Below, piece by piece: positions 1 through 56,669 of a stretch of 64,000 nucleotides of DNA (within the stretch, counting starts at the first letter, position 1; the number at the start of each line of letters is the position of its first letter). Under the pieces are notes generated by a model, which saw only the letters and a program-made list of their open reading frames with translations, did not search any database and was not told where the DNA came from. This stretch comes from a virus. Its lineage: Duplodnaviria; Caudoviricetes. The stretch covers positions 96,001 to 160,000 of the IMG/VR virus record IMGVR_UViG_3300042258_000341, one strand, 5' to 3'. Made by a program: the position numbers and the translations under genes.

Positions 1-186
1 GGAAGATTTTCAACAGGTTTTGTTTTTTGCTGCATTGCTTTGGGTTTAGACATATCTGCACGAGAAAGAGGGCTTATTGCTTGAGAAGTAATAATTTTTG
101 TTACAGGTTTCATTTGTTCAGGCATCTACTCAATTCTTCTTTCTTATTTATTTTATCTCTTTCACTCAAAAAAACATGAAAAAGAA

Positions 187-492
187 TTATTTCACTTTAT
201 CACAATCTACTACAGTAAGAGAAGAGACAACATTCATTTCTTTTATTTTCTCTTCTAAATTAGCACAAACACAACAATTAGATAATTCAGGAAGAGTTTC
301 ACAAATAAATTCCCGGATTGTCGATACTTGACATTTCCGGGAACAATCAAACAATTCTTGTGCTTTTTCGCTTTCCAGCAAATCATTTTCAATTATGTAC
401 GTAATCGCTTTTAAACATTTCATTTCACAATTGTACAAATTACCCACCTGTGTTAACTGTTGTATGCGTTTAAGTTTAGCTTCTTTTGTCAA
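187..492 (-). CDS. hypothetical protein (Cys-rich)
   Basis: 101-aa ORF collinear with neighbours; no recognisable motif; start uncertain. Confidence 0.5.
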   Translation of the reverse strand: MTKEAKLKRIQQLTQVGNLYNCEMKCLKAITYIIENDLLESEKAQELFDCSRKCQVSTIREFICETLPELSNCCVCANLEEKIKEMNVVSSLTVVDCDKVK

Positions 493-535
493 GATAAAAA
501 ACCCCCGGGATATTTATTTTATTTTCAAGTGTATT

Positions 536-22066: not shown

Positions 22067-22216
22067 TATTTTTCCGTCCGAAGTTGTTTCAAGGTAGTAA
22101 TGATATAGCCTGTGAAAATAGCAAACAAAGCGGTCTTTTTCAAGACCGCTTTTCAACATCCTGTTTTTACAGCCCGGATGTGAACACGGATACCATTTTT
22201 CGGTTTCTTTTTTCAT
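22067..22216 (-). CDS. small Zn-finger-like protein (49 aa, not in the ORF track)
   Basis: MKKETEKWYPCSHPGC...CYFH; ATGA overlap with the upstream stop. Confidence 0.4.
22122..22152 (-). terminator. intrinsic terminator-like hairpin
   Basis: AAAGCGGTCTT-GAAA-AAGACCGCTTT followed by GTTTG. Confidence 0.55.
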
Positions 22217-22416
22217 AGAAATTTCCTGTATTTTTCTACAGTTTCGGAAATGTCTTTCAAAGCATTGCGCAAAGAAACATCATCCGAAACAACAATGGCT
22301 TTATCCAGAGATCCGAAATGTGTTTCCAGAATATTCAAAAGGAGTTGTTTTATTGCATCTTCGTCCGGGGAATGTCTTAAAGTTGATTTCTGATAAAGGA
22401 TGTCAAGTTCTTTTTC
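22213..22416 (-). pseudogene. 3' fragment of the gene interrupted by IS607
   Basis: EKELDILYQKSTLRHSPDEDAIKQLLL..HFGSL; the first codons of the predicted ORF lie inside the IS end; resembles the helical C-terminus of PF10127-type nucleotidyltransferases (recalled, unverified). Confidence 0.5.
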
Positions 22417-22530
22417 CGATTCATTTCTCTTAATAAATGTTACCATTCACTAAGTAAAGTTCACAACAGAAAATACGTCTGTTATGGAAGAATCTTTCGA
22501 CGCAAGAGAAAAATTCTTTAAGAATACATT
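22396..22530 (-). ncRNA. putative TnpB omega-RNA (scaffold ~22416-22530, guide ~22396-22415)
   Basis: overlaps the tnpB 3' end; stems TTTCTCTT/AAGAGAAA, CATAACAGA/TCTGTTGTG, TTAGTGAATG-GTAA-CATTTATTAA; GATTC/GAATC pseudoknot pairing just before the terminal GG. Confidence 0.65.
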
Positions 22531-23760
22531 TCTTGCTCCGTTTAAATCCCTGTCTATTTCTAATCCACAAGAACATTTCAAAGTTTTCTTAGAACCAATA
22601 TTCTGAACTTTCCCGCATTTACCACATGTTTTGCTGGTGTAAGCTTCGTTTACCTCAATAATTTCACAAGAATACTCTTGTGCCTTGAATTTCAGAAATT
22701 GCTTGAACCTGTAATGTGACCATCCAAGCATTGCTCTGGCGACTTTTGAATGAAGTTTTGTTACCATATTTGATGTTTCAAACGATGGTATTAAAATACA
22801 ATCAAAATTTTTTACCAATAACAACGCTAATTTATGGTGTATTTCTGAAATCAAGTCTTTAATCTTCCAGCGAATTCGTTTCAATTTAAGATTATATCTG
22901 TTTGTTGCTTCTTTTTTACGCCTAGAATAAAGCTTATCTAAAATATAACATAAGCGATAAATTCGAGAAAAATCCGCATTACCAACTTTGGCAGCAAAAG
23001 AATCAGAATACAAGGTTTGAAATGTTCTCACACCGGGGTCAAGAGCTACGACAGGGAGCCTTTGGTTATCAGGTCTTTTGACAGCTTTATCTTCCGGTTT
23101 AATTACAAAATAACGACCATTTTCTAAAATTACACGACAATCATATTTAACTTCTCCAATCTTTTCTCTAAGATTAATAATTCCTGTGAGGGTGTGATAA
23201 AAACCAGCTTCTTTAAGTGCAGACTTAGGAATAAACAGATTAAAGTCCGCATTTTTACGAGAACGAAATTTTACTTTTTGAATTTTTCCAGTTTGCTTAA
23301 ATTTGCGCTTTGCATTTTTGGTTGCATCACAGGCATCTTTAATCGCAATGGATTTTATCTGATATGGCACTTCTTTCGCCCAGACTGGCAAACCATGAAT
23401 TAAATCTGTTTTTATGGCTTTCCAGTCTGCCTTCGTATTAGGTTGTCTAAGATACTCAACCGTTTTATTGAAAGAATATCTAGCTACGCCAAACCATTTA
23501 AACAGAATTGTTTTCTGTTGTTTCGTTGGATAAAATCTTATCTTTCTTGAGCGTTTCAGTGTATTTTCTGAGTCCGTGAATTCTACACGAGAAAACCGTG
23601 ATGATTGATAGCAAGTCTGTGACGAGTTCTTGTTGTGGGGAACTTTTACTGTCATCGAGAACCACGAGTTTAACATTGTGTTTAGTGAAGAACCACTCAA
23701 TGAGTTCAAATCCAAATCTACATAATCTGTCTCGATGGGCAACCACAACTTCTTTGACAT
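22450..23760 (-). CDS. tnpB: TnpB RNA-guided endonuclease, Fanzor-type RuvC
   Basis: KIRFYPT, ALDPGVRTF (RuvC-I), ILIPSFE (shifted RuvC-II Glu), EAYTSKTCGKC..CSC zinc finger, DRDLNGARN (RuvC-III); start uncertain, frame open to 24126. Confidence 0.9.
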   Translation of the reverse strand: MSKKLWLPIETDYVDLDLNSLSGSSLNTMLNSWFSMTVKVPHNKNSSQTCYQSSRFSRVEFTDSENTLKRSRKIRFYPTKQQKTILFKWFGVARYSFNKTVEYLRQPNTKADWKAIKTDLIHGLPVWAKEVPYQIKSIAIKDACDATKNAKRKFKQTGKIQKVKFRSRKNADFNLFIPKSALKEAGFYHTLTGIINLREKIGEVKYDCRVILENGRYFVIKPEDKAVKRPDNQRLPVVALDPGVRTFQTLYSDSFAAKVGNADFSRIYRLCYILDKLYSRRKKEATNRYNLKLKRIRWKIKDLISEIHHKLALLLVKNFDCILIPSFETSNMVTKLHSKVARAMLGWSHYRFKQFLKFKAQEYSCEIIEVNEAYTSKTCGKCGKVQNIGSKKTLKCSCGLEIDRDLNGARNVFLKNFSLASKDSSITDVFSVVNFT

Positions 23761-24091
23761 TTCCAAGACTTGTTTGTTCCAAAAGCCACAGGAACTGTTT
23801 TCTTTTGAAGTTGATTCCACTTCCGACATCAAAGATAATTTCGTGTTCTGGGTAATGCTTTCGCATAAATTCTTTTTGGCGTTCAAGGTCATCTTTTTGT
23901 TTGTGTGATGAGACTCGGCAATAGCAGAAAGCCTTGCAGGTAGAACTTGATTGTTCGATGCTTGAGACATCATACAATCTTTGTCCTGCGGGATTTCTGA
24001 TATACTTAATTTTCCCATCATCAGCCCACTTTCGTAGAGTGTTAGCACAAACTCCAAGATGCTTAACCGCTTTTCTTGACGGTATAAACAT
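23498..24091 (-). CDS. tnpA: IS607 serine recombinase TnpA
   Basis: HTH LGVCANTLRKW, YCRVSS, DVGSG, HRDRLCRFG, ELVTDLLSIITVFSCRIHGLR. Confidence 0.95.
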   Translation of the reverse strand: MFIPSRKAVKHLGVCANTLRKWADDGKIKYIRNPAGQRLYDVSSIEQSSSTCKAFCYCRVSSHKQKDDLERQKEFMRKHYPEHEIIFDVGSGINFKRKQFLWLLEQTSLGNVKEVVVAHRDRLCRFGFELIEWFFTKHNVKLVVLDDSKSSPQQELVTDLLSIITVFSCRIHGLRKYTETLKKDKILSNETTENNSV

Positions 24092-24111
24092 TTGTTAACC
24101 CCCTGTAATGA

Positions 24112-24140
24112 ATGGTAGCATATCAATCACTTGTTGTCAA
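24112..24140 (-). promoter_or_regulatory. sigma70-type promoter of the IS607 element
   Basis: TTGACA-N17-TACCAT with extended TG, then AGGGGG RBS before the tnpA ATG. Confidence 0.75.
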
Positions 24141-24457
24141 CCTCTTCGGTTTGAAAAAGTATTGTCCTTGGCGTGTTGGTATTGTTCTTTTGTGACTTCT
24201 ATTACCCGGTTGAAGGAAATTTCGAAGTCTTTTATAAAAGCGTTGTTATCGAAAAGGAACGGAGTGCATATGACCCATTTATAGAGTTCTTCTTTCTCTT
24301 CTTCAGAAAGAACCCCCCTGTTTTCCAATTTGGTTTTTATTGTTGAAATAGTTTCAACTAATTCAACGTCTTCTTTTTCGTCGGGGTCAACTTCGAATTC
24401 CAGAAAAGTTTCGAGTTCATCCATCAACTCTTCTTCGTGTTTTTTATTCATTACCAA
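24137..24457 (-). CDS. hypothetical protein, probably truncated by IS607
   Basis: follows a class I motif and AGGAG; its last codons overlap the IS left end. Confidence 0.55.
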   Translation of the reverse strand: MVMNKKHEEELMDELETFLEFEVDPDEKEDVELVETISTIKTKLENRGVLSEEEKEELYKWVICTPFLFDNNAFIKDFEISFNRVIEVTKEQYQHAKDNTFSNRRG

Positions 24458-35626: not shown

Positions 35627-36211
35627 TTAAATTTCTTGCCAGAATCTTTTTAATTCCGATAAATACAAAGGGTCTTTAACTTCTTTTAATTGCAACAAAG
35701 TTTCGGCATATCGGATTTTTTGTAATTTCCCGGATAATTCAGAAGCTTCGAAAACATAATATTCCATCGGGTCAAATTCAAGAAACAAATGCCTCGGGAA
35801 AGGAATGTTGAATCTTTTCTTGAGAAGAACAAAGAATTCCCGTAAATGAATTCCTGAATAAAAAGATTCTCTATTATACATAAGCCAAAAAGGAGTTCTG
35901 GATTTCTGGCATTTATGACAATATACATGGGGCTTACTCGCTCCTGTGTTCCTGTCTTCAGGATAATATTTTGCAGAAGGGTGTCTATCTTGAGAACCGT
36001 GGGAAGGCAATAAACATTGCACCTGTTGTTGAGTATCATCCGACCCCAGTTCGTATCCGTAATTTGTAAATACTTGTGACATCAGCAATTTACTATCGTA
36101 ATATGCTGAAATGCTTTCTGTTAAAGGCACAATTGTATTACTGGGGATTTGCTTAATCAATTCCTCATCGGAAAGATTAATGTATTCAGGATGTAAATCT
36201 ATTGTTCTCAT
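35627..36211 (-). CDS. stand-alone primase CHC2-type zinc-binding domain protein
   Basis: CLLPSHG..DRHPS...YCHKC; lies between DnaB and PolA. Confidence 0.7.
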   Translation of the reverse strand: MRTIDLHPEYINLSDEELIKQIPSNTIVPLTESISAYYDSKLLMSQVFTNYGYELGSDDTQQQVQCLLPSHGSQDRHPSAKYYPEDRNTGASKPHVYCHKCQKSRTPFWLMYNRESFYSGIHLREFFVLLKKRFNIPFPRHLFLEFDPMEYYVFEASELSGKLQKIRYAETLLQLKEVKDPLYLSELKRFWQEI

Positions 36212-52544: not shown

Positions 52545-55500
52545 TTATTTAAGAATTGGTCTGCCGAGGGGTAGATAATTTGCACAAAGATTTGTATTCG
52601 GATATCCTACAATACTTAATGATCCGTGACTCTTCATCAAATACAAAGATTTATCAAGAGTAAGCATATCTACTTGAATTCCTTGTATATAGTTGCTTAT
52701 GGCTGACCCAGCAATGCCTCTCCAAATAGCTCTTACAGGCAATGCTGTAGGAGCTAACACTGTTTTTACTCCGGCTAAGGAGTAAGAGGAAGCAAGATAT
52801 CCTATTTCGGAGTCAAGTAATGAGTCTTGAGTGATTACAGGGTTGCCTTGCACATAAGCGGGAGTTAATCCTTTGTTATAATCGACCCACAAGGAGTAAG
52901 TAATAACTTCATCAGATTGACTATCCGTAATAAAATTAACTTTTTGACAATTAAACAACGAATTAACATCTTCGCCATGAAAAGAATAAGAAACATTATA
53001 GGTGTGATTAACAAAAACATCCCTAAATTTAGAGTCTTGAGGATTTCCAGCAACCCCAGTGCCTAATGTAGTCAAATACAATTTATCAGCTATCTTTTGA
53101 AATGCTGTAACACGCCGAGTAGTGTCAATCAAACTCCTATCCAGCTGATCCGCCATTGCTTCGTAGAACACAACGACCTGAGAGTTCGCTGCCGGAGCAT
53201 GGTTCATGGTTCCTGTGGTAGAATAGACTCCTGTAGTTGAACTACCTGTGTTTGCCGTGTCGGTCATTGCAAGGACTGCGTGAAGGATGCGCCAGTTGGT
53301 TCCATTGTAACCGGAAAACCACATTTTGTAAGTGGAACCGTCTTTGATGACTGAGGGGTAGTAGGTGTATGTGGAGTTGAGCCCATTCGGTTCGGTGCCG
53401 ATGTCCATTGCAAGAACTGGAGTTGACCATGTAGTGCCGTCGATGGAGGTTGAATAGAGGATTCTGAAGTTACTGCCGTTGGAGCCTGAGAACCACATTT
53501 TGTAAGTTGAGCCGTCTTTGATGACTGAGGGGGTGAAAGAGTAGACGGAATTGTAACCGTTAGGTTCGGTTCCGATGTCCATTGCAAGGACAGGGGTTGA
53601 CCATGTGGTGCCGTCTGTTGATGTGGAATAGAGGATGCGCCAGTTGGTTCTGTAACCGGAAAACCACATTTTGTAAGTGGAACCGTCTTTGATGACTGAG
53701 GGGGTGAAAGAGTGGACGGAATTGTAACCGTTAGGTTCGGTTCCGATGTCCATTGCAAGAACTGGAGTTGACCATGTAGTGCCGTCTGTTGATGTGGAAT
53801 AGAGGATGCGCCAGTTGGTTCCATTGGAGCCTGAGAACCACATTTTGTAAGTTGAGCCGTCTTTGATGACTGAGGGGGCGTAAGAGTGGACGGAATTGTA
53901 ACCGTTGGGTTCGGTTCCGATGTCCATTGCAAGGACAGGGGTTGACCATGTGGTGCCGTCTGTTGATGTGGAATAGAGGATGCGCCAGTTGGTTCCATTG
54001 TAACCGGAAAACCACATTTTGTAAGTGGAACCGTCTTTGATGACTGAGGGGGTGTGAGAGTGGACGGAATTGTAACCGTTAGGTTCGGTTCCGATGTCCA
54101 TAACAGCGCCTTTATATTGGAAACCCATCAAATTACTTGTCCTACTATGAGAATCCACTGGGAGGTTTCCGTCATTTATTGGATCAACAGTACTTCCAAA
54201 AGGAATAAAACCAATACCATTGTTAGGAAGAACCTGTGTTCCATCGACATTGAATTGGCAACCCAAGAAAGAATCATTGTTCTGATAGGGGATTCTGTTC
54301 ATGAACCCTGATCCGGGTTGGAAGGTGAGGTATGCTTGGATGTGAATAGGAGTGTTGGTTGGCATTAATGCGTAACTAATGCCACTAATAGCAGTAGCTA
54401 AACCACTCGCATTAACTTCATAGCCCAAATCAGGATTGTATGCGACTGTAGATGTTAAGGTAGCAGGGCCATCGCCAGTTGATTTTGTCCATACTCCAAG
54501 TTCGGGCTCGGCTTTATAGGTATTAGTATTTGATATAAAACGAATTGTGTTATTAACAATGTCGATTTGAAATACTTTATACGTATGTGAGTCTGGGGAC
54601 ACATAAAGGTCGTTTATTTTAACTCCTGCGACAGAAGATACTTTAAGTCTATCCGTTATAGAATGCTTTTTGGTCGTTGTAGCGGGGCCACTACCACTTA
54701 TTTTTGTAAATGTGCCAATCGAGGTTGGCACAGTAGAACCAGAAAACCAGCCTGTAATTTGTGTAACTCCTCCCGCTATATTGTGTCGAACCCCGGTAAT
54801 ATTAAAATCTACTCCATTTGGAAATTGATAAATATCCCCAATGGCGAAATTAGCATCATAAACCACCGAAATATTCGTATATGTTTTATCTTCCAGTGTA
54901 AATACTGCAGAATCTCCACCCAAACCCGACCAAGTACCAGAGACATTAAAAGAATCATAAGAAGCTAAATATTCTGCACCAGCTCCCCACTTCAGATGTG
55001 GTCTGCGTGTTGAGATTTTTGTACGAGAAGCATGAGATGGGTTTTCGTCATTACCGGATTTAAGATCAGAAGCGTCAATGGTAAGAGTTTTTGTGGAAGA
55101 TACATAAGTAAAAATGGATGTTGGATTAACACCATCTACACTCATATCAGGAATGAGTGCGGTAACAGCTTGTTCGCCACCAACATCTGAAAAATAGTTT
55201 CTGATTCCATCTAAACCAGACTTAACACCATTCTGAGCGGTTGGAACATTGATCACTTCCCAACCTGCATCAAAAGGAACAGAGCCAACTAAGCCTTCAG
55301 CTCTCATAAGCTTAGTTCCATAAATGTTAAGGTCTTTATATGTTCCATTACCATCAGAATCACTCATAAGAGGTTCAAAAGTAGTCATCAATTTTGATTC
55401 AAGAATCTGATTCAAATTCTTTTCATACATAGAATCAAAATCAAAGTTATTATCAATAACACCATGTTGTCTAAGATCACAAACATCATTGAAATGAATA

Positions 55501-56669
55501 TGGTCACAGAATTTACCATCAGGTCTTCCAGAAACGCCAGAAGCAATAGTTCCAGCGCCATTAGGATTGGTAAGAGACCATGCGGTTGAGTTTCTGCGAT
55601 GAATGATTGCGAGAGGAACGGCTCTTACGATACTATCAAGAGCTAAAGAAGCATCAACTGCAGCAGAAAGACCTGCATCTGTAGAAACAAACGAATAAGA
55701 GATTGCCGAAGGAGTTGCAAGTTTACCTTGAGCTTTAATGTTGGTTGTATCGCCGTGAGGCATTGAAGTAAGGTATGAACTCACACCGTTTACAACACGG
55801 ACTCTGTATCGGATCTGATAGTAATTACCATCATCACCTTTAATTGTGTTGTTGTCGGGGTTTGCAAGGAATTTTTCGATATTAGCATCATTAGCTTTAA
55901 TGTAAGCACCATGCCCACTTGCAGAGGCTAAGTAAGCAGGGTTATTTCCACCGGAAGCATCTGCAGTATAAAGAGTACAACTATTAAAAGTTGTAAGTGC
56001 ACCTTTGTCGAAGTTTACGGCTCCATTCGGGAAGAGAACATCATCTGCAGCTCCGATAACAACCTTTTCTTTCCATACTTCAAGGAAAGCAAAGTCAAGA
56101 CGACTTCCGGTTGAAGGAGCAGCTCCGAGGTTGATTAACATCGAGGCATTATATTCGGGACGGATATCAAGGTTAAGTTTATATCCATCCACGTAAATAT
56201 TCTTTGGAGTTCCGGCAAGAGCTATGTGATTTGCAAAAGTAGTTGTTGCTGAAGCCAAAGGTTGAGTTACAAGAGAAAAATCAGAAGTTGTTCTTGCTGT
56301 AGTAAGATCGATATCCAATTCATACATTTTGTTGAATTGAGCATAATCAAAAGAAGAAGGAATTCGGTCTCTCATTGCACGAGCGGCGATTTCAAGGGCT
56401 GAATTGTCTTCATAAGTGGATTCGTTTTCCAAATCTGTAATTGCGTTATCGATTGCAGTTAATTTTGCAGAAAGAGACGCTTCCCCGTCACGAGCTGTAA
56501 CAACTTCAGATTCTAAAGCATCGTGTGCGTCACGAACCGCATCTACGTTGTTGTGTAATTGAACAAGAGGTCTGTTCAACACGCCGTCAGAATTTCCACT
56601 AACTCCACCAGAAACGGGTTCCCCGTTCTGAATATAAGTTAAATTTTCATTCGGAAGAGTGGTAGTCAT
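52545..56669 (-). CDS. long tail fibre with a five-bladed beta-propeller repeat domain
   Basis: baseplate-attachment N-terminus (NGEPV..GVLNRPL), RLDFAFLEVW, GRPDGKF; five 58-aa repeats PSVIKDGSTYKMWFSG..I.YSTS.DG.TW. Confidence 0.85.
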   Translation of the reverse strand: MTTTLPNENLTYIQNGEPVSGGVSGNSDGVLNRPLVQLHNNVDAVRDAHDALESEVVTARDGEASLSAKLTAIDNAITDLENESTYEDNSALEIAARAMRDRIPSSFDYAQFNKMYELDIDLTTARTTSDFSLVTQPLASATTTFANHIALAGTPKNIYVDGYKLNLDIRPEYNASMLINLGAAPSTGSRLDFAFLEVWKEKVVIGAADDVLFPNGAVNFDKGALTTFNSCTLYTADASGGNNPAYLASASGHGAYIKANDANIEKFLANPDNNTIKGDDGNYYQIRYRVRVVNGVSSYLTSMPHGDTTNIKAQGKLATPSAISYSFVSTDAGLSAAVDASLALDSIVRAVPLAIIHRRNSTAWSLTNPNGAGTIASGVSGRPDGKFCDHIHFNDVCDLRQHGVIDNNFDFDSMYEKNLNQILESKLMTTFEPLMSDSDGNGTYKDLNIYGTKLMRAEGLVGSVPFDAGWEVINVPTAQNGVKSGLDGIRNYFSDVGGEQAVTALIPDMSVDGVNPTSIFTYVSSTKTLTIDASDLKSGNDENPSHASRTKISTRRPHLKWGAGAEYLASYDSFNVSGTWSGLGGDSAVFTLEDKTYTNISVVYDANFAIGDIYQFPNGVDFNITGVRHNIAGGVTQITGWFSGSTVPTSIGTFTKISGSGPATTTKKHSITDRLKVSSVAGVKINDLYVSPDSHTYKVFQIDIVNNTIRFISNTNTYKAEPELGVWTKSTGDGPATLTSTVAYNPDLGYEVNASGLATAISGISYALMPTNTPIHIQAYLTFQPGSGFMNRIPYQNNDSFLGCQFNVDGTQVLPNNGIGFIPFGSTVDPINDGNLPVDSHSRTSNLMGFQYKGAVMDIGTEPNGYNSVHSHTPSVIKDGSTYKMWFSGYNGTNWRILYSTSTDGTTWSTPVLAMDIGTEPNGYNSVHSYAPSVIKDGSTYKMWFSGSNGTNWRILYSTSTDGTTWSTPVLAMDIGTEPNGYNSVHSFTPSVIKDGSTYKMWFSGYRTNWRILYSTSTDGTTWSTPVLAMDIGTEPNGYNSVYSFTPSVIKDGSTYKMWFSGSNGSNFRILYSTSIDGTTWSTPVLAMDIGTEPNGLNSTYTYYPSVIKDGSTYKMWFSGYNGTNWRILHAVLAMTDTANTGSSTTGVYSTTGTMNHAPAANSQVVVFYEAMADQLDRSLIDTTRRVTAFQKIADKLYLTTLGTGVAGNPQDSKFRDVFVNHTYNVSYSFHGEDVNSLFNCQKVNFITDSQSDEVITYSLWVDYNKGLTPAYVQGNPVITQDSLLDSEIGYLASSYSLAGVKTVLAPTALPVRAIWRGIAGSAISNYIQGIQVDMLTLDKSLYLMKSHGSLSIVGYPNTNLCANYLPLGRPILK
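53280..54101 (-). repeat. five tandem 174-nt coding repeats (one of 171 nt)
   Basis: ACCACATTTTGTAAG recurs at 53318, 53492, 53663, 53837 and 54011. Confidence 0.95.

What the first reader, a model, noticed from the sequence alone, without database searches (positions are those of the whole stretch)
23498..24126. TnpB frame stays open across the whole of tnpA: an overprinted N-terminal domain
Seen: the tnpB frame (+1 relative to tnpA) has no stop over all ~197 overlapping codons, which is unlikely by chance in AT-rich DNA. It contains an ATG at 23760 giving MSKKLWLP...NSWF ahead of the normal TnpB start region. From memory, giant-virus Fanzor2 N-terminal regions carry a similar W-x-P...N-S-W pattern (unverified). 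Inference: TnpB has an N-terminal domain overprinted on tnpA, possibly the origin of the Fanzor2 N-terminal domain; alternatively a frameshift makes a TnpA-TnpB fusion. This is my best candidate for an undescribed system here.
Basis: partly seen in the sequence, partly recalled or inferred. Interest (0 to 1): 0.8.

Follow-up and report, generated by a model that had tools for sequence, protein, structure and literature searches.

The report
Nuclease start overprinted on transposase gene
In this phage-borne IS607 jumping gene, almost the whole transposase gene is also read in a second frame that encodes the first ~170 residues of the RNA-guided nuclease TnpB, including a domain so far described only in giant-virus Fanzor2; hundreds of relatives keep this double coding and the papers I could search do not describe it.

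Summary
On the minus strand, the tnpB frame (+1 to tnpA) has no stop in all 197 tnpA codons. About 10 are expected from window codon usage, and 0 of 20,000 resamplings had none.

This is a family trait, not chance. In 48 non-redundant relatives from bacteria, phages and giant viruses, +1 stops from tnpA codon 99 to the end number 0 against 146 expected. In codons 25-98 they number 12 against 72. In codons 1-24 they are not avoided. Eight canonical IS607 controls carry the expected 5-30 stops.

- A +1-frame ATG at tnpA codon 24/25 (window 24021) is kept by synonymous codon choice in 43 of 48 loci.
- Four-fold sites of tnpA evolve at 0.32x the neutral rate.
- Copies with dead or lost tnpA keep the frame open, keep the motifs, and show dN/dS of 0.27-0.46.

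TnpB residues 77-152 match, in sequence and in the predicted fold, the N-terminal domain (RuvC-R and thumb) of mimivirus Fanzor2 (PDB 9b0l). The NSWF motif aligns with the residues that contact the guide RNA there.

A frameshift fusion is unlikely, and the ATG at 23760 is not the conserved start.

This scan has already found the same architecture in giant-virus elements on other DNA. This is a phage and bacterial (pro-Fanzor) case.

The parts
22416..24140 (-). IS607-family element (1,725 bp) of pro-Fanzor type, single copy in this 197-kb phage record
   Evidence: Homology to relatives L084-L087 and L004 starts at TTGACAAC (24140) and ends at ...AATCGG (22416); the flanks are unrelated. Single copy in the record.
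24141..24146 (-). G-rich left flank (AAGAGG), candidate TAM / GG target dinucleotide
   Evidence: The left flank ends in GG in WIN (AAGAGG) and L084 (GGGGG), and is G-rich but ends AG in L004 (CAGGAG). IS607 inserts next to GG and its TnpB TAMs are G-rich (PMC13565253). The function is inferred.
24112..24140 (-). Promoter-like site TTGACA-17-TACCAT at the very left end of the element
   Evidence: Matches 10 of 12 consensus positions, with TG before the -10 box. It is a consensus match only. It places the TTG at 24126 upstream of the likely transcript start.
23498..24091 (-). tnpA, serine-recombinase transposase (197 aa), apparently intact
   Evidence: Pfam Resolvase 5.8e-20 plus MerR/HTH_17. 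An AGGGGG Shine-Dalgarno lies before the ATG (sequence).
22450..24021 (-). tnpB, probable full coding sequence (523 aa) from the conserved internal ATG
   Evidence: Identical to database protein P0001. A +1-frame ATG at tnpA codons 21-28 occurs in 43 of 48 loci against 26.5 expected. Stop avoidance begins here. Pfam HTH_OrfB_IS605, OrfB_IS605 and Cas12f1-like_TNB.
23498..24021 (-). Dual-coding stretch (524 nt): tnpA codons 24-197 and TnpB residues 1-174 in the +1 frame
23788..24021 (-). TnpB leader, residues 1-78, predicted disordered
   Evidence: AlphaFold2 pLDDT below 50. The frame is kept open (12 stops against 72 expected in 48 loci) but the sequence is weakly constrained at its start. The leader is shorter (9-40 aa) in many tnpA-less or tnpA-decayed copies and in three lineages.
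23566..23787 (-). TnpB N-terminal domain, residues 79-152, homologous to the ApmFz2 NTD (RuvC-R plus thumb)
   Evidence: Profile match to 9b0l from L79 residue 77. Structural alignment of model 77..518 to chain 53..518, Z 26.7. 0 stops against 146 expected. dN/dS 0.27-0.46 where it is single-coding.
23737..23784 (-). FW...LWLP motif (residues 80-95), confident helix in the model
   Evidence: L92, L94 and P95 are nearly invariant. pLDDT is 84 with a helix at 83-91. The motif is kept in tnpA-less bacterial and giant-virus copies.
23659..23670 (-). NSWF motif (residues 118-121)
   Evidence: S119, W120 and F121 are nearly invariant. The motif aligns with ApmFz2 N82-S83-W84-Y85. Asn82 and Ser83 contact the omega-RNA pseudoknot in the solved structure (PMC11832414).
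22450..23565 (-). Canonical TnpB body (WED, REC, RuvC with DPG and alternative Glu, zinc finger)
   Evidence: ISDra2 TnpB and Cas12f chains align only from model residue ~153. ALDPGVRTF and VNEAYTSKTC are seen, and the E aligns with ApmFz2 E467.
22429..22486 (-). Two terminal hairpins (22486-22462 and 22454-22429) before the right end, candidate omega/reRNA scaffold
   Evidence: RNAalifold on 6 relatives shows several compensatory pairs in both hairpins. The first was also found as a hairpin. No Rfam family matched.

Best explanation
This is an autonomous IS607 element of the pro-Fanzor/Fanzor2 lineage inserted in a phage genome. Over 524 nt, one stretch of DNA encodes two proteins.

- Frame 0 gives the serine-recombinase transposase TnpA.
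- Frame +1 gives the first ~174 residues of the RNA-guided nuclease TnpB.

TnpB most likely initiates on its own at a conserved ATG about 70 nt inside tnpA (window 24021), giving a 523-aa protein. Residues 1-78 are a disordered leader. Residues 79-152 form a small N-terminal domain, and the ordinary TnpB body follows.

By homology with mimivirus Fanzor2, the domain probably packs on and completes the RuvC fold. It probably contacts the guide-RNA pseudoknot through the NSWF motif, and its last part clasps target DNA beside the TAM.

Shown here: the frame is kept open by selection, both frames constrain each other, the domain is selected as protein when tnpA is lost, and it is homologous to the Fanzor2 NTD. 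Inferred: the exact start codon in this copy, the role of the leader, and the contacts the domain makes.
For: - Window: 0 +1 stops in 197 codons against 10.2 expected.
- Family: in 111 of 111 loci with a TnpA hit, tnpB is +1 to tnpA.
- In 48 non-redundant loci, +1 stops number 63 in codons 1-24 (34 expected), 12 in codons 25-98 (72 expected) and 0 in codons 99-end (146 expected). The +2 frame has 628 stops.
- Eight canonical IS607 controls overlap by only 4-71 nt and carry 5-30 +1 stops, equal to expectation.
- A +1 ATG lies at tnpA codons 21-28 in 43 of 48 loci (26.5 expected). An SD-like tetramer lies upstream in 24 of 48 (6.7 expected).
- In 19 independent pairs, tnpA 4-fold sites in the overlap evolve at 0.32x, and tnpB-frame 4-fold sites at 0.24x, the rate of 4-fold sites in the non-overlapping tnpB body (Fisher 1e-35 and 1e-46). 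The constraint rises towards the domain.
- At least 15 loci have 1-5 premature stops in tnpA but none in the tnpB frame.
- tnpA-less copies in bacteria and giant-virus MAGs keep FW..LWLP..SWF while the former tnpA frame has 5-9 stops.
- In such copies the NTD has dN/dS 0.27-0.46 with dS similar to the body, and they carry their own Met 9-23 residues before the domain.
- Homology: profile against PDB 9b0l gives E 3.6e-62 from L79 residue 77. Foldseek top hit has E 4.7e-25. VIA gives Z 26.7 over model 77..518 against chain 53..518.
- The NTD-only profile finds 1,401 cluster representatives (802 at E<=1e-10), always near the N-terminus.
Against: - There is no direct evidence of translation.
- This copy lacks a clear Shine-Dalgarno before ATG 24021, so the start used here is uncertain.
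- The NTD profile also matches the stop-ridden +1 frame of canonical tnpA genes. NTD similarity among tnpA-bearing loci is therefore partly imposed by TnpA conservation and is not independent evidence.
- The model's confidence in the domain is moderate (pLDDT 55-84), and residues 98-110 and 131-151 are low.
- The shuffles and binomial tests do not correct for relatedness. Some pairs are mosaic, for example L036/L058.
Confidence: 0.78

Rival explanations
1. The overprinted domain is real and translated, but in this copy translation starts at a later in-frame Met (ATG 23892 or 23829, 36 or 15 residues before the FW motif). The ~78-aa leader would then not be made or would be a minor isoform.
For: - Three lineages (L090, L092, L101) have +1 stops up to tnpA codon 76 and start just before the domain.
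- tnpA-less copies have leaders of only 9-40 aa.
- tnpA 4-fold sites opposite TnpB residues 1-36 are barely slower (0.58) than those in the non-overlapped codons 1-24 (0.65).
- There is no clear SD before 24021 in the window.
Against: - The leader frame is open in 43 of 48 loci (12 stops against 72 expected).
- Stop avoidance begins exactly at the conserved ATG.
- The ATG is kept by synonymous choice.
- The later Mets of the window are not conserved and also lack an SD.
Confidence: 0.13
2. Ribosomes that start at the tnpA ATG shift +1 early in tnpA and make a TnpA(N-terminus)-TnpB fusion. The open frame would then serve a programmed frameshift rather than an independent start.
For: - The frame relation is +1 in all 111 loci.
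- Stop avoidance starts about 24 codons into tnpA.
- Frameshift fusions are known in other IS families (IS1 and IS3; established knowledge).
Against: - A +1-frame ATG with an SD-like sequence upstream is conserved beyond what TnpA coding requires.
- tnpA-less and tnpA-dead copies keep the domain with their own Met.
- In some loci the +1 frame is open and has an ATG upstream of the tnpA start (546-aa forms).
- I did not see a conserved slippery motif in the codon alignment, although I made no formal search.
Confidence: 0.05
3. The open frame is not translated. It would be a by-product of composition, of TnpA constraint or of some other overlapping signal, and TnpB would be a canonical ~400-aa protein starting at ATG 23655.
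For: - TnpA conservation alone makes the +1 reading look alike across IS607, even where it is closed by stops.
- Long off-frame open runs exist elsewhere in the window (287 and 131 codons).
Against: - 0 stops against 146 expected in the domain part across 48 loci, whereas canonical controls have the expected stops.
- The frame and motifs survive the loss of tnpA under purifying selection.
- The homologous segment is an ordered part of the solved Fanzor2 protein (PMC11832414).
Confidence: 0.03

Closest known systems
Acanthamoeba polyphaga mimivirus Fanzor2 (ApmFz2, protein L79, PDB 9b0l; Schargel et al. 2024, PMC11832414)
   Same: - It is the best sequence and fold match.
- It shares the DPG motif and the alternative RuvC glutamate (E467 aligned).
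- It shares an N-terminal extension made of a disordered leader plus a structured NTD. NSWF aligns with N82-S83-W84-Y85, and model residues 77-152 align with chain residues 53-130.
   Different: - Only 22% identity.
- ApmFz2 comes from a giant virus of amoebae, and its leader acts as a nuclear localisation signal.
- This element sits in a phage, with a bacterial-type promoter and a Shine-Dalgarno.
- The paper calls the NTD unseen in any other TnpB structure and does not mention tnpA overlap.
Pro-Fanzor (TnpB2) IS607 TnpBs of cyanobacteria (Yoon et al. 2023, PMC10711439)
   Same: - An IS607 TnpA partner.
- DPG in RuvC-I.
- The alternative glutamate six residues before the zinc finger.
- 43-50% identity to many cyanobacterial copies.
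   Different: [quoted passage not shown]
- This copy is phage-borne and its nearest bacterial relative is a Riflebacteria MAG (86% in the body).
- Relatives also occur in Poribacteria, Chloroflexota, Desulfobacterota, Acidobacteriota, Chlamydiota, Bacteroidota and Clostridia.
- The paper does not mention the N-terminal domain or the overlap.
Canonical IS607 elements (IS607 of H. pylori, ISChh1, ISCbt3, ISSis5 and others)
   Same: - Same gene order.
- A serine-recombinase TnpA (29-43% identity).
- tnpB mostly in the +1 frame.
- GG-linked ends.
   Different: - The overlap is only 4-71 nt.
- TnpB is 390-519 aa without the domain.
- The +1 frame of tnpA carries 5-30 stops, as expected by chance.
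- In four of the eight controls that closed frame still reads like the domain.
Overprinted (dual-coding) gene pairs of viruses and frameshift fusions of IS1/IS3
   Same: - Two proteins come from one DNA stretch.
- The younger frame is partly disordered.
- Each frame constrains the other's synonymous sites.
   Different: - The new frame extends an existing downstream gene across nearly the whole upstream gene.
- No frameshift is needed.
- The arrangement is conserved across bacteria, phages and giant viruses.

Membership tests
IS607 family insertion sequence | TnpA is a serine recombinase with an N-terminal MerR-like HTH followed by the catalytic domain | tested here: met
   Pfam Resolvase 5.8e-20 at residues 54-175; MerR/HTH_17 at residues 7-47.
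IS607 family insertion sequence | tnpB lies downstream on the same strand; no terminal inverted repeats; the element sits next to a GG and ends in GG | tested here: met
   Gene order. The ends were mapped by loss of homology: the left flank is ...GG and the right end is ...AATCGG. Inverted repeats were not searched for specifically.
Pro-Fanzor / TnpB2 clade | DPG motif in RuvC-I | tested here: met
   ALDPGVRTF; D, G, V, R, T and F are invariant across 17 homologues, and the middle residue is P or C (DPG/DCG).
Pro-Fanzor / TnpB2 clade | Alternative RuvC-II glutamate six residues before the zinc finger | tested here: met
   VNEAYTSKTC; the E aligns with the catalytic E467 of ApmFz2. A Glu also sits near the canonical position (FET), and its role was not tested.
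Pro-Fanzor / TnpB2 clade | Cyanobacterial host (as described in PMC10711439) | tested here: not met
   The record is a phage. Its closest relatives are in other phage contigs and a Riflebacteria MAG. This widens the clade's range and does not exclude membership.
Fanzor2 | Structured N-terminal domain (RuvC-R plus thumb) before the WED domain | tested here: met
   Profile alignment and structural alignment.
Fanzor2 | Encoded by a eukaryote or a virus of eukaryotes, with a nuclear localisation signal | tested here: not met
   Phage context with a bacterial promoter and SD. An NLS was not tested. It works like Fanzor2 but is filed as a prokaryotic TnpB.
Overprinted (dual-coding) gene pair | Both frames are open and both are under purifying selection | tested here: met
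Overprinted (dual-coding) gene pair | Both products are actually translated | not testable with these tools
Programmed-frameshift transposase fusion (IS1/IS3 type) | The downstream frame lacks its own start and depends on a slippery site | tested here: not met
   Conserved ATG with SD-like sequence. tnpA-less copies have their own Met. No formal search for slippery sites was made.

The most novel reading that the evidence does not exclude
The N-terminal domain shared by pro-Fanzor TnpBs and Fanzor2 was born de novo by overprinting.

Under this reading, the tnpB start crept upstream from the short +1 overlap seen in canonical IS607. It continued until the codons of the recombinase catalytic domain, read one base out of frame, became a folded module that binds RNA and DNA.

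Canonical tnpA genes still carry a domain-like sequence in that frame, closed by stops. The double coding locks TnpA and TnpB together in evolution and possibly in expression. Its leader is the raw material later used as the nuclear localisation signal of Fanzor2.
Probability: 0.6. Interest if true: 0.85.

Novelty: new variant of a known kind. Interest (0 to 1): 0.72.

Why it matters
- It gives a concrete origin for a functional domain of an RNA-guided nuclease lineage that led to the eukaryotic Fanzors. The domain is the out-of-frame reading of the partner transposase gene. Such a clear, widely conserved case of birth of a folded domain by overprinting is rare outside small viruses.
- The Fanzor2 domain described as unique is in fact present in hundreds of bacterial and phage TnpBs. 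This matters for choosing and trimming these compact nucleases as genome editors. Constructs started at the canonical TnpB N-terminus would lack a part that touches the guide RNA and the target DNA.
- Mutations in tnpA cannot be treated as neutral for tnpB, or the reverse. Co-conservation of the two proteins is partly forced by shared nucleotides.
- It extends pro-Fanzors beyond cyanobacteria, and into phages.

Tried and rejected
- **Chance or composition:** rejected by resampling and by the family-wide stop counts with canonical controls.
- **ATG 23760 as the start:** rejected. The Met is not conserved and lies inside the conserved FW..LWLP segment.
- **TTG 24126 as the start:** unlikely. It lies in the spacer of the promoter-like site at the element's end.
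- **NTD similarity among tnpA-bearing loci as proof of coding:** rejected as independent evidence. The same profile hits the stop-ridden +1 frame of canonical tnpA. I relied instead on stops, rates and tnpA-less copies.
- **Phage collection DNA search:** no match.
- **Rfam:** no family above noise for a guide RNA.
- **Empty-site homologue of the interrupted phage region:** none found, so the pre-insertion sequence is unknown.
- **Literature**: no paper in the searchable library describes a tnpB frame overlapping most of tnpA. Subscription-only papers and ISfinder notes could not be searched.
- **First fuzzy-match script for the left end:** timed out and was replaced by an alignment.
Full report
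**What is there.** The window is part of a 196,978-bp virus record. PHROG hits and earlier notes on the same genome (portal, prohead protease, tRNAs) mark it as a phage.

On the minus strand lies a single IS607-family element.
- tnpA runs 24091..23498 and encodes 197 aa with a MerR-type HTH plus a Resolvase domain.
- A long frame from 24126 to 22450 carries the TnpB domains HTH_OrfB_IS605 (from residue 191 of 558), OrfB_IS605 and the Cas12f1-like zinc-ribbon domain.
- The element's ends were mapped by where homology to relatives stops. The left end is TTGACAAC at 24140, preceded by a flank ending in GG in the window and L084 (G-rich, ending AG, in L004). The right end is ...AATCGG at 22416. 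The element is 1,725 bp.
- The left end carries a promoter-like TTGACA-17-TACCAT.
- The last 70 nt contain two hairpins with compensatory changes among six relatives, as expected for a guide-RNA scaffold.

**The observation.** The tnpB frame is +1 to tnpA and has no stop in the 197 overlapped codons, whereas the +2 frame has 19. Resampling synonymous codons with the window's usage gives 10.2 stops on average, and none of 20,000 samples was stop-free. Permuting tnpA's own codons gives 5.2, with 4 of 20,000 stop-free.

**It is a family trait.** A protein search returned more than 100 clusters of 518-546 aa covering 92-96% of the long ORF, down to 52% identity. I fetched 122 related loci with patterns taken from the nuclease body, so the sample is not biased toward long N-termini. 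They come from cyanobacteria, Poribacteria, Riflebacteria, Chloroflexota, Desulfobacterota and others, from phage contigs, and from giant-virus MAGs.
- In all 111 loci with a TnpA match, tnpB is +1 to tnpA.
- In 48 loci below 90% nucleotide identity, +1 stops number 63 in tnpA codons 1-24 (34 expected), 12 in codons 25-98 (72 expected) and 0 in codons 99 to the end (146 expected). The +2 frame has 628 stops.
- Eight canonical IS607 elements (H. pylori IS607, ISChh1, ISCbt3, ISSis5 and others) overlap by only 4-71 nt. They carry 5-30 +1 stops, equal to expectation.

**Where TnpB starts.** Stop avoidance begins at tnpA codon ~24. There the motif W/Y-A-[DN]-[DEN]-G supplies a +1-frame ATG (xAT Gxx).
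- The T needed for the ATG is used in 43 of 48 loci, against 26.5 expected from synonymous resampling.
- An SD-like tetramer in the preceding R-K codons occurs in 24 of 48, against 6.7 expected.
- In the window this is ATG 24021/24018, giving 523 aa, identical to the database protein P0001.
- The window's own SD is weak, so the start in this copy is the least certain step.

**Both frames are selected.** In 19 independent pairs, four-fold sites were compared with those in the non-overlapping tnpB body, where the p-distance is 0.282.
- tnpA four-fold sites in the overlap have a p-distance of 0.104, a corrected rate ratio of 0.32.
- tnpB-frame four-fold sites in the overlap have a p-distance of 0.080, a ratio of 0.24.
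- Along tnpA, the ratio falls from 0.65 before the ATG to 0.23-0.34 opposite the domain.

Caveats: relatedness is not modelled, and some pairs are mosaic.

**The decisive natural experiments.**
- At least 15 loci carry 1-5 premature stops in tnpA while the tnpB frame through the same DNA stays open.
- Copies without any detectable tnpA, in a deltaproteobacterial MAG, a Blastocatellia MAG and two giant-virus MAGs, keep the motifs FW..LWLP..SWF. The former tnpA frame there has 5-9 stops.
- In such single-coding copies the domain has dN/dS of 0.27-0.46 with a dS like that of the body, and its own Met lies 9-23 residues upstream.

These results also argue against an obligatory TnpA-TnpB frameshift fusion.

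**What the extension is.**
- A profile of 57 long TnpBs matches PDB 9b0l (mimivirus L79, ApmFz2) at E 3.6e-62, starting at L79 residue 77. NSWF lies opposite N82-S83-W84-Y85. ISDra2 TnpB aligns only from residue 160.
- The AlphaFold2 model (mean pLDDT 72.5) has residues 1-78 disordered, a confident helix at 83-91, a hairpin at 110-126, and the body from residue 152.
- Foldseek ranks 9b0l first. VIA-align aligns model 77..518 with chain 53..518 (Z 26.7, rmsd 4.2, 405 residues). All other TnpB and Cas12f chains start near model residue 153.
[quoted passage not shown] The RuvC-R part (65-91) completes RuvC and contacts the guide-RNA pseudoknot through Asn82 and Ser83. The thumb (109-130) clasps target DNA next to the TAM. 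Residues 1-53 are a disordered NLS (PMC11832414).

I therefore infer the same roles here.

An NTD-only profile finds 1,401 cluster representatives among 1.84 billion proteins, 802 of them at E<=1e-10, always near the N-terminus.

**Origin.** The NTD profile also matches the +1 frame of tnpA in four of the eight canonical controls (L. crispatus 2e-13, ISSis5 4e-10, ISCbt3 3e-9, Thermus 4e-4), where that frame is broken by many stops. This has two consequences:
- Similarity of the domain among tnpA-bearing loci is partly imposed by TnpA, so I did not count it as evidence.
- The domain is literally the out-of-frame reading of the recombinase catalytic domain.

The recombinase fold is universal and the domain is clade-specific. 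The domain is therefore most likely the younger, overprinted product, grown from the short +1 overlap of canonical IS607. This step is inference.

**Comparison and novelty.** The element meets the IS607 criteria and the two pro-Fanzor signatures, DPG and the alternative Glu aligned with E467. It does not meet the stated cyanobacterial restriction (PMC10711439). It works like Fanzor2, but it is prokaryotic.

None of the papers I could search mentions that tnpB overlaps most of tnpA, or that bacterial TnpBs have the Fanzor2 domain. These include the pro-Fanzor paper, the Fanzor2 structure paper, the original Fanzor paper, two Fanzor activity papers and a 2026 review.

This scan had already reported the same architecture in giant-virus elements on other DNA. 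My tests were made independently on this phage copy and agree with those reports.

Noticed in passing
window 52545-56669 (-) and 35627-36211 (-): These two genes have unusually long open runs in their +1 frame: 287 codons inside a 1,375-aa gene, and 131 of 195 codons. They could be further overlaps or compositional effects.
   Followed up: no
window 24137-24457 (-) and 22213-22446 (-): The ORF upstream of the element takes its stop codon (TGA) from the element's first bases. The ORF downstream takes its ATG and first ~10 codons from the element's last 30 bases. The two ORFs are in a compatible frame only if a boundary is moved by 1 nt, so it is unclear whether one phage gene was split or hybrid ORFs were created. 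No empty-site relative was found.
   Followed up: partly
loci L126, L129, L131, L132 (canonical IS607 tnpA genes): The stop-ridden +1 frame of canonical tnpA still reads like the pro-Fanzor N-terminal domain (E 2e-13 to 4e-4 in a small search space). This is a latent version of the overprinted domain.
   Followed up: partly
loci L004-L083: Pro-Fanzor-type elements with the long overlap occur well outside cyanobacteria: Poribacteria, Riflebacteria, Caldilineaceae, Desulfatirhabdium, Blastocatellia, Parachlamydia, Paludibacteraceae, Clostridia and Parabeggiatoa. The published statement is that they are exclusive to cyanobacteria.
   Followed up: partly
L027, L029-L032, L038, L040 (Anabaenopsis elenkinii CCIBt3563 chromosome): At least seven copies lie in one genome. 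Two of them (L031, L038) have a nonsense mutation in tnpA but an intact long tnpB. This culturable strain would suit expression tests.
   Followed up: partly
window 22429-22486 (-): Two hairpins at the 3' end of tnpB, one spanning the stop codon, show compensatory changes among six relatives. No Rfam family, RAGATH-18 included, matched.
   Followed up: partly
tnpA codon 18 in many cyanobacterial loci (e.g. L027, L029, L041): A recurrent +1-frame TAA arises from the Leu-Arg codons TTA AGG, six codons before the conserved TnpB ATG and inside the SD-like AGGAAG. A short upstream +1 ORF ending there might couple to TnpB initiation.
   Followed up: no
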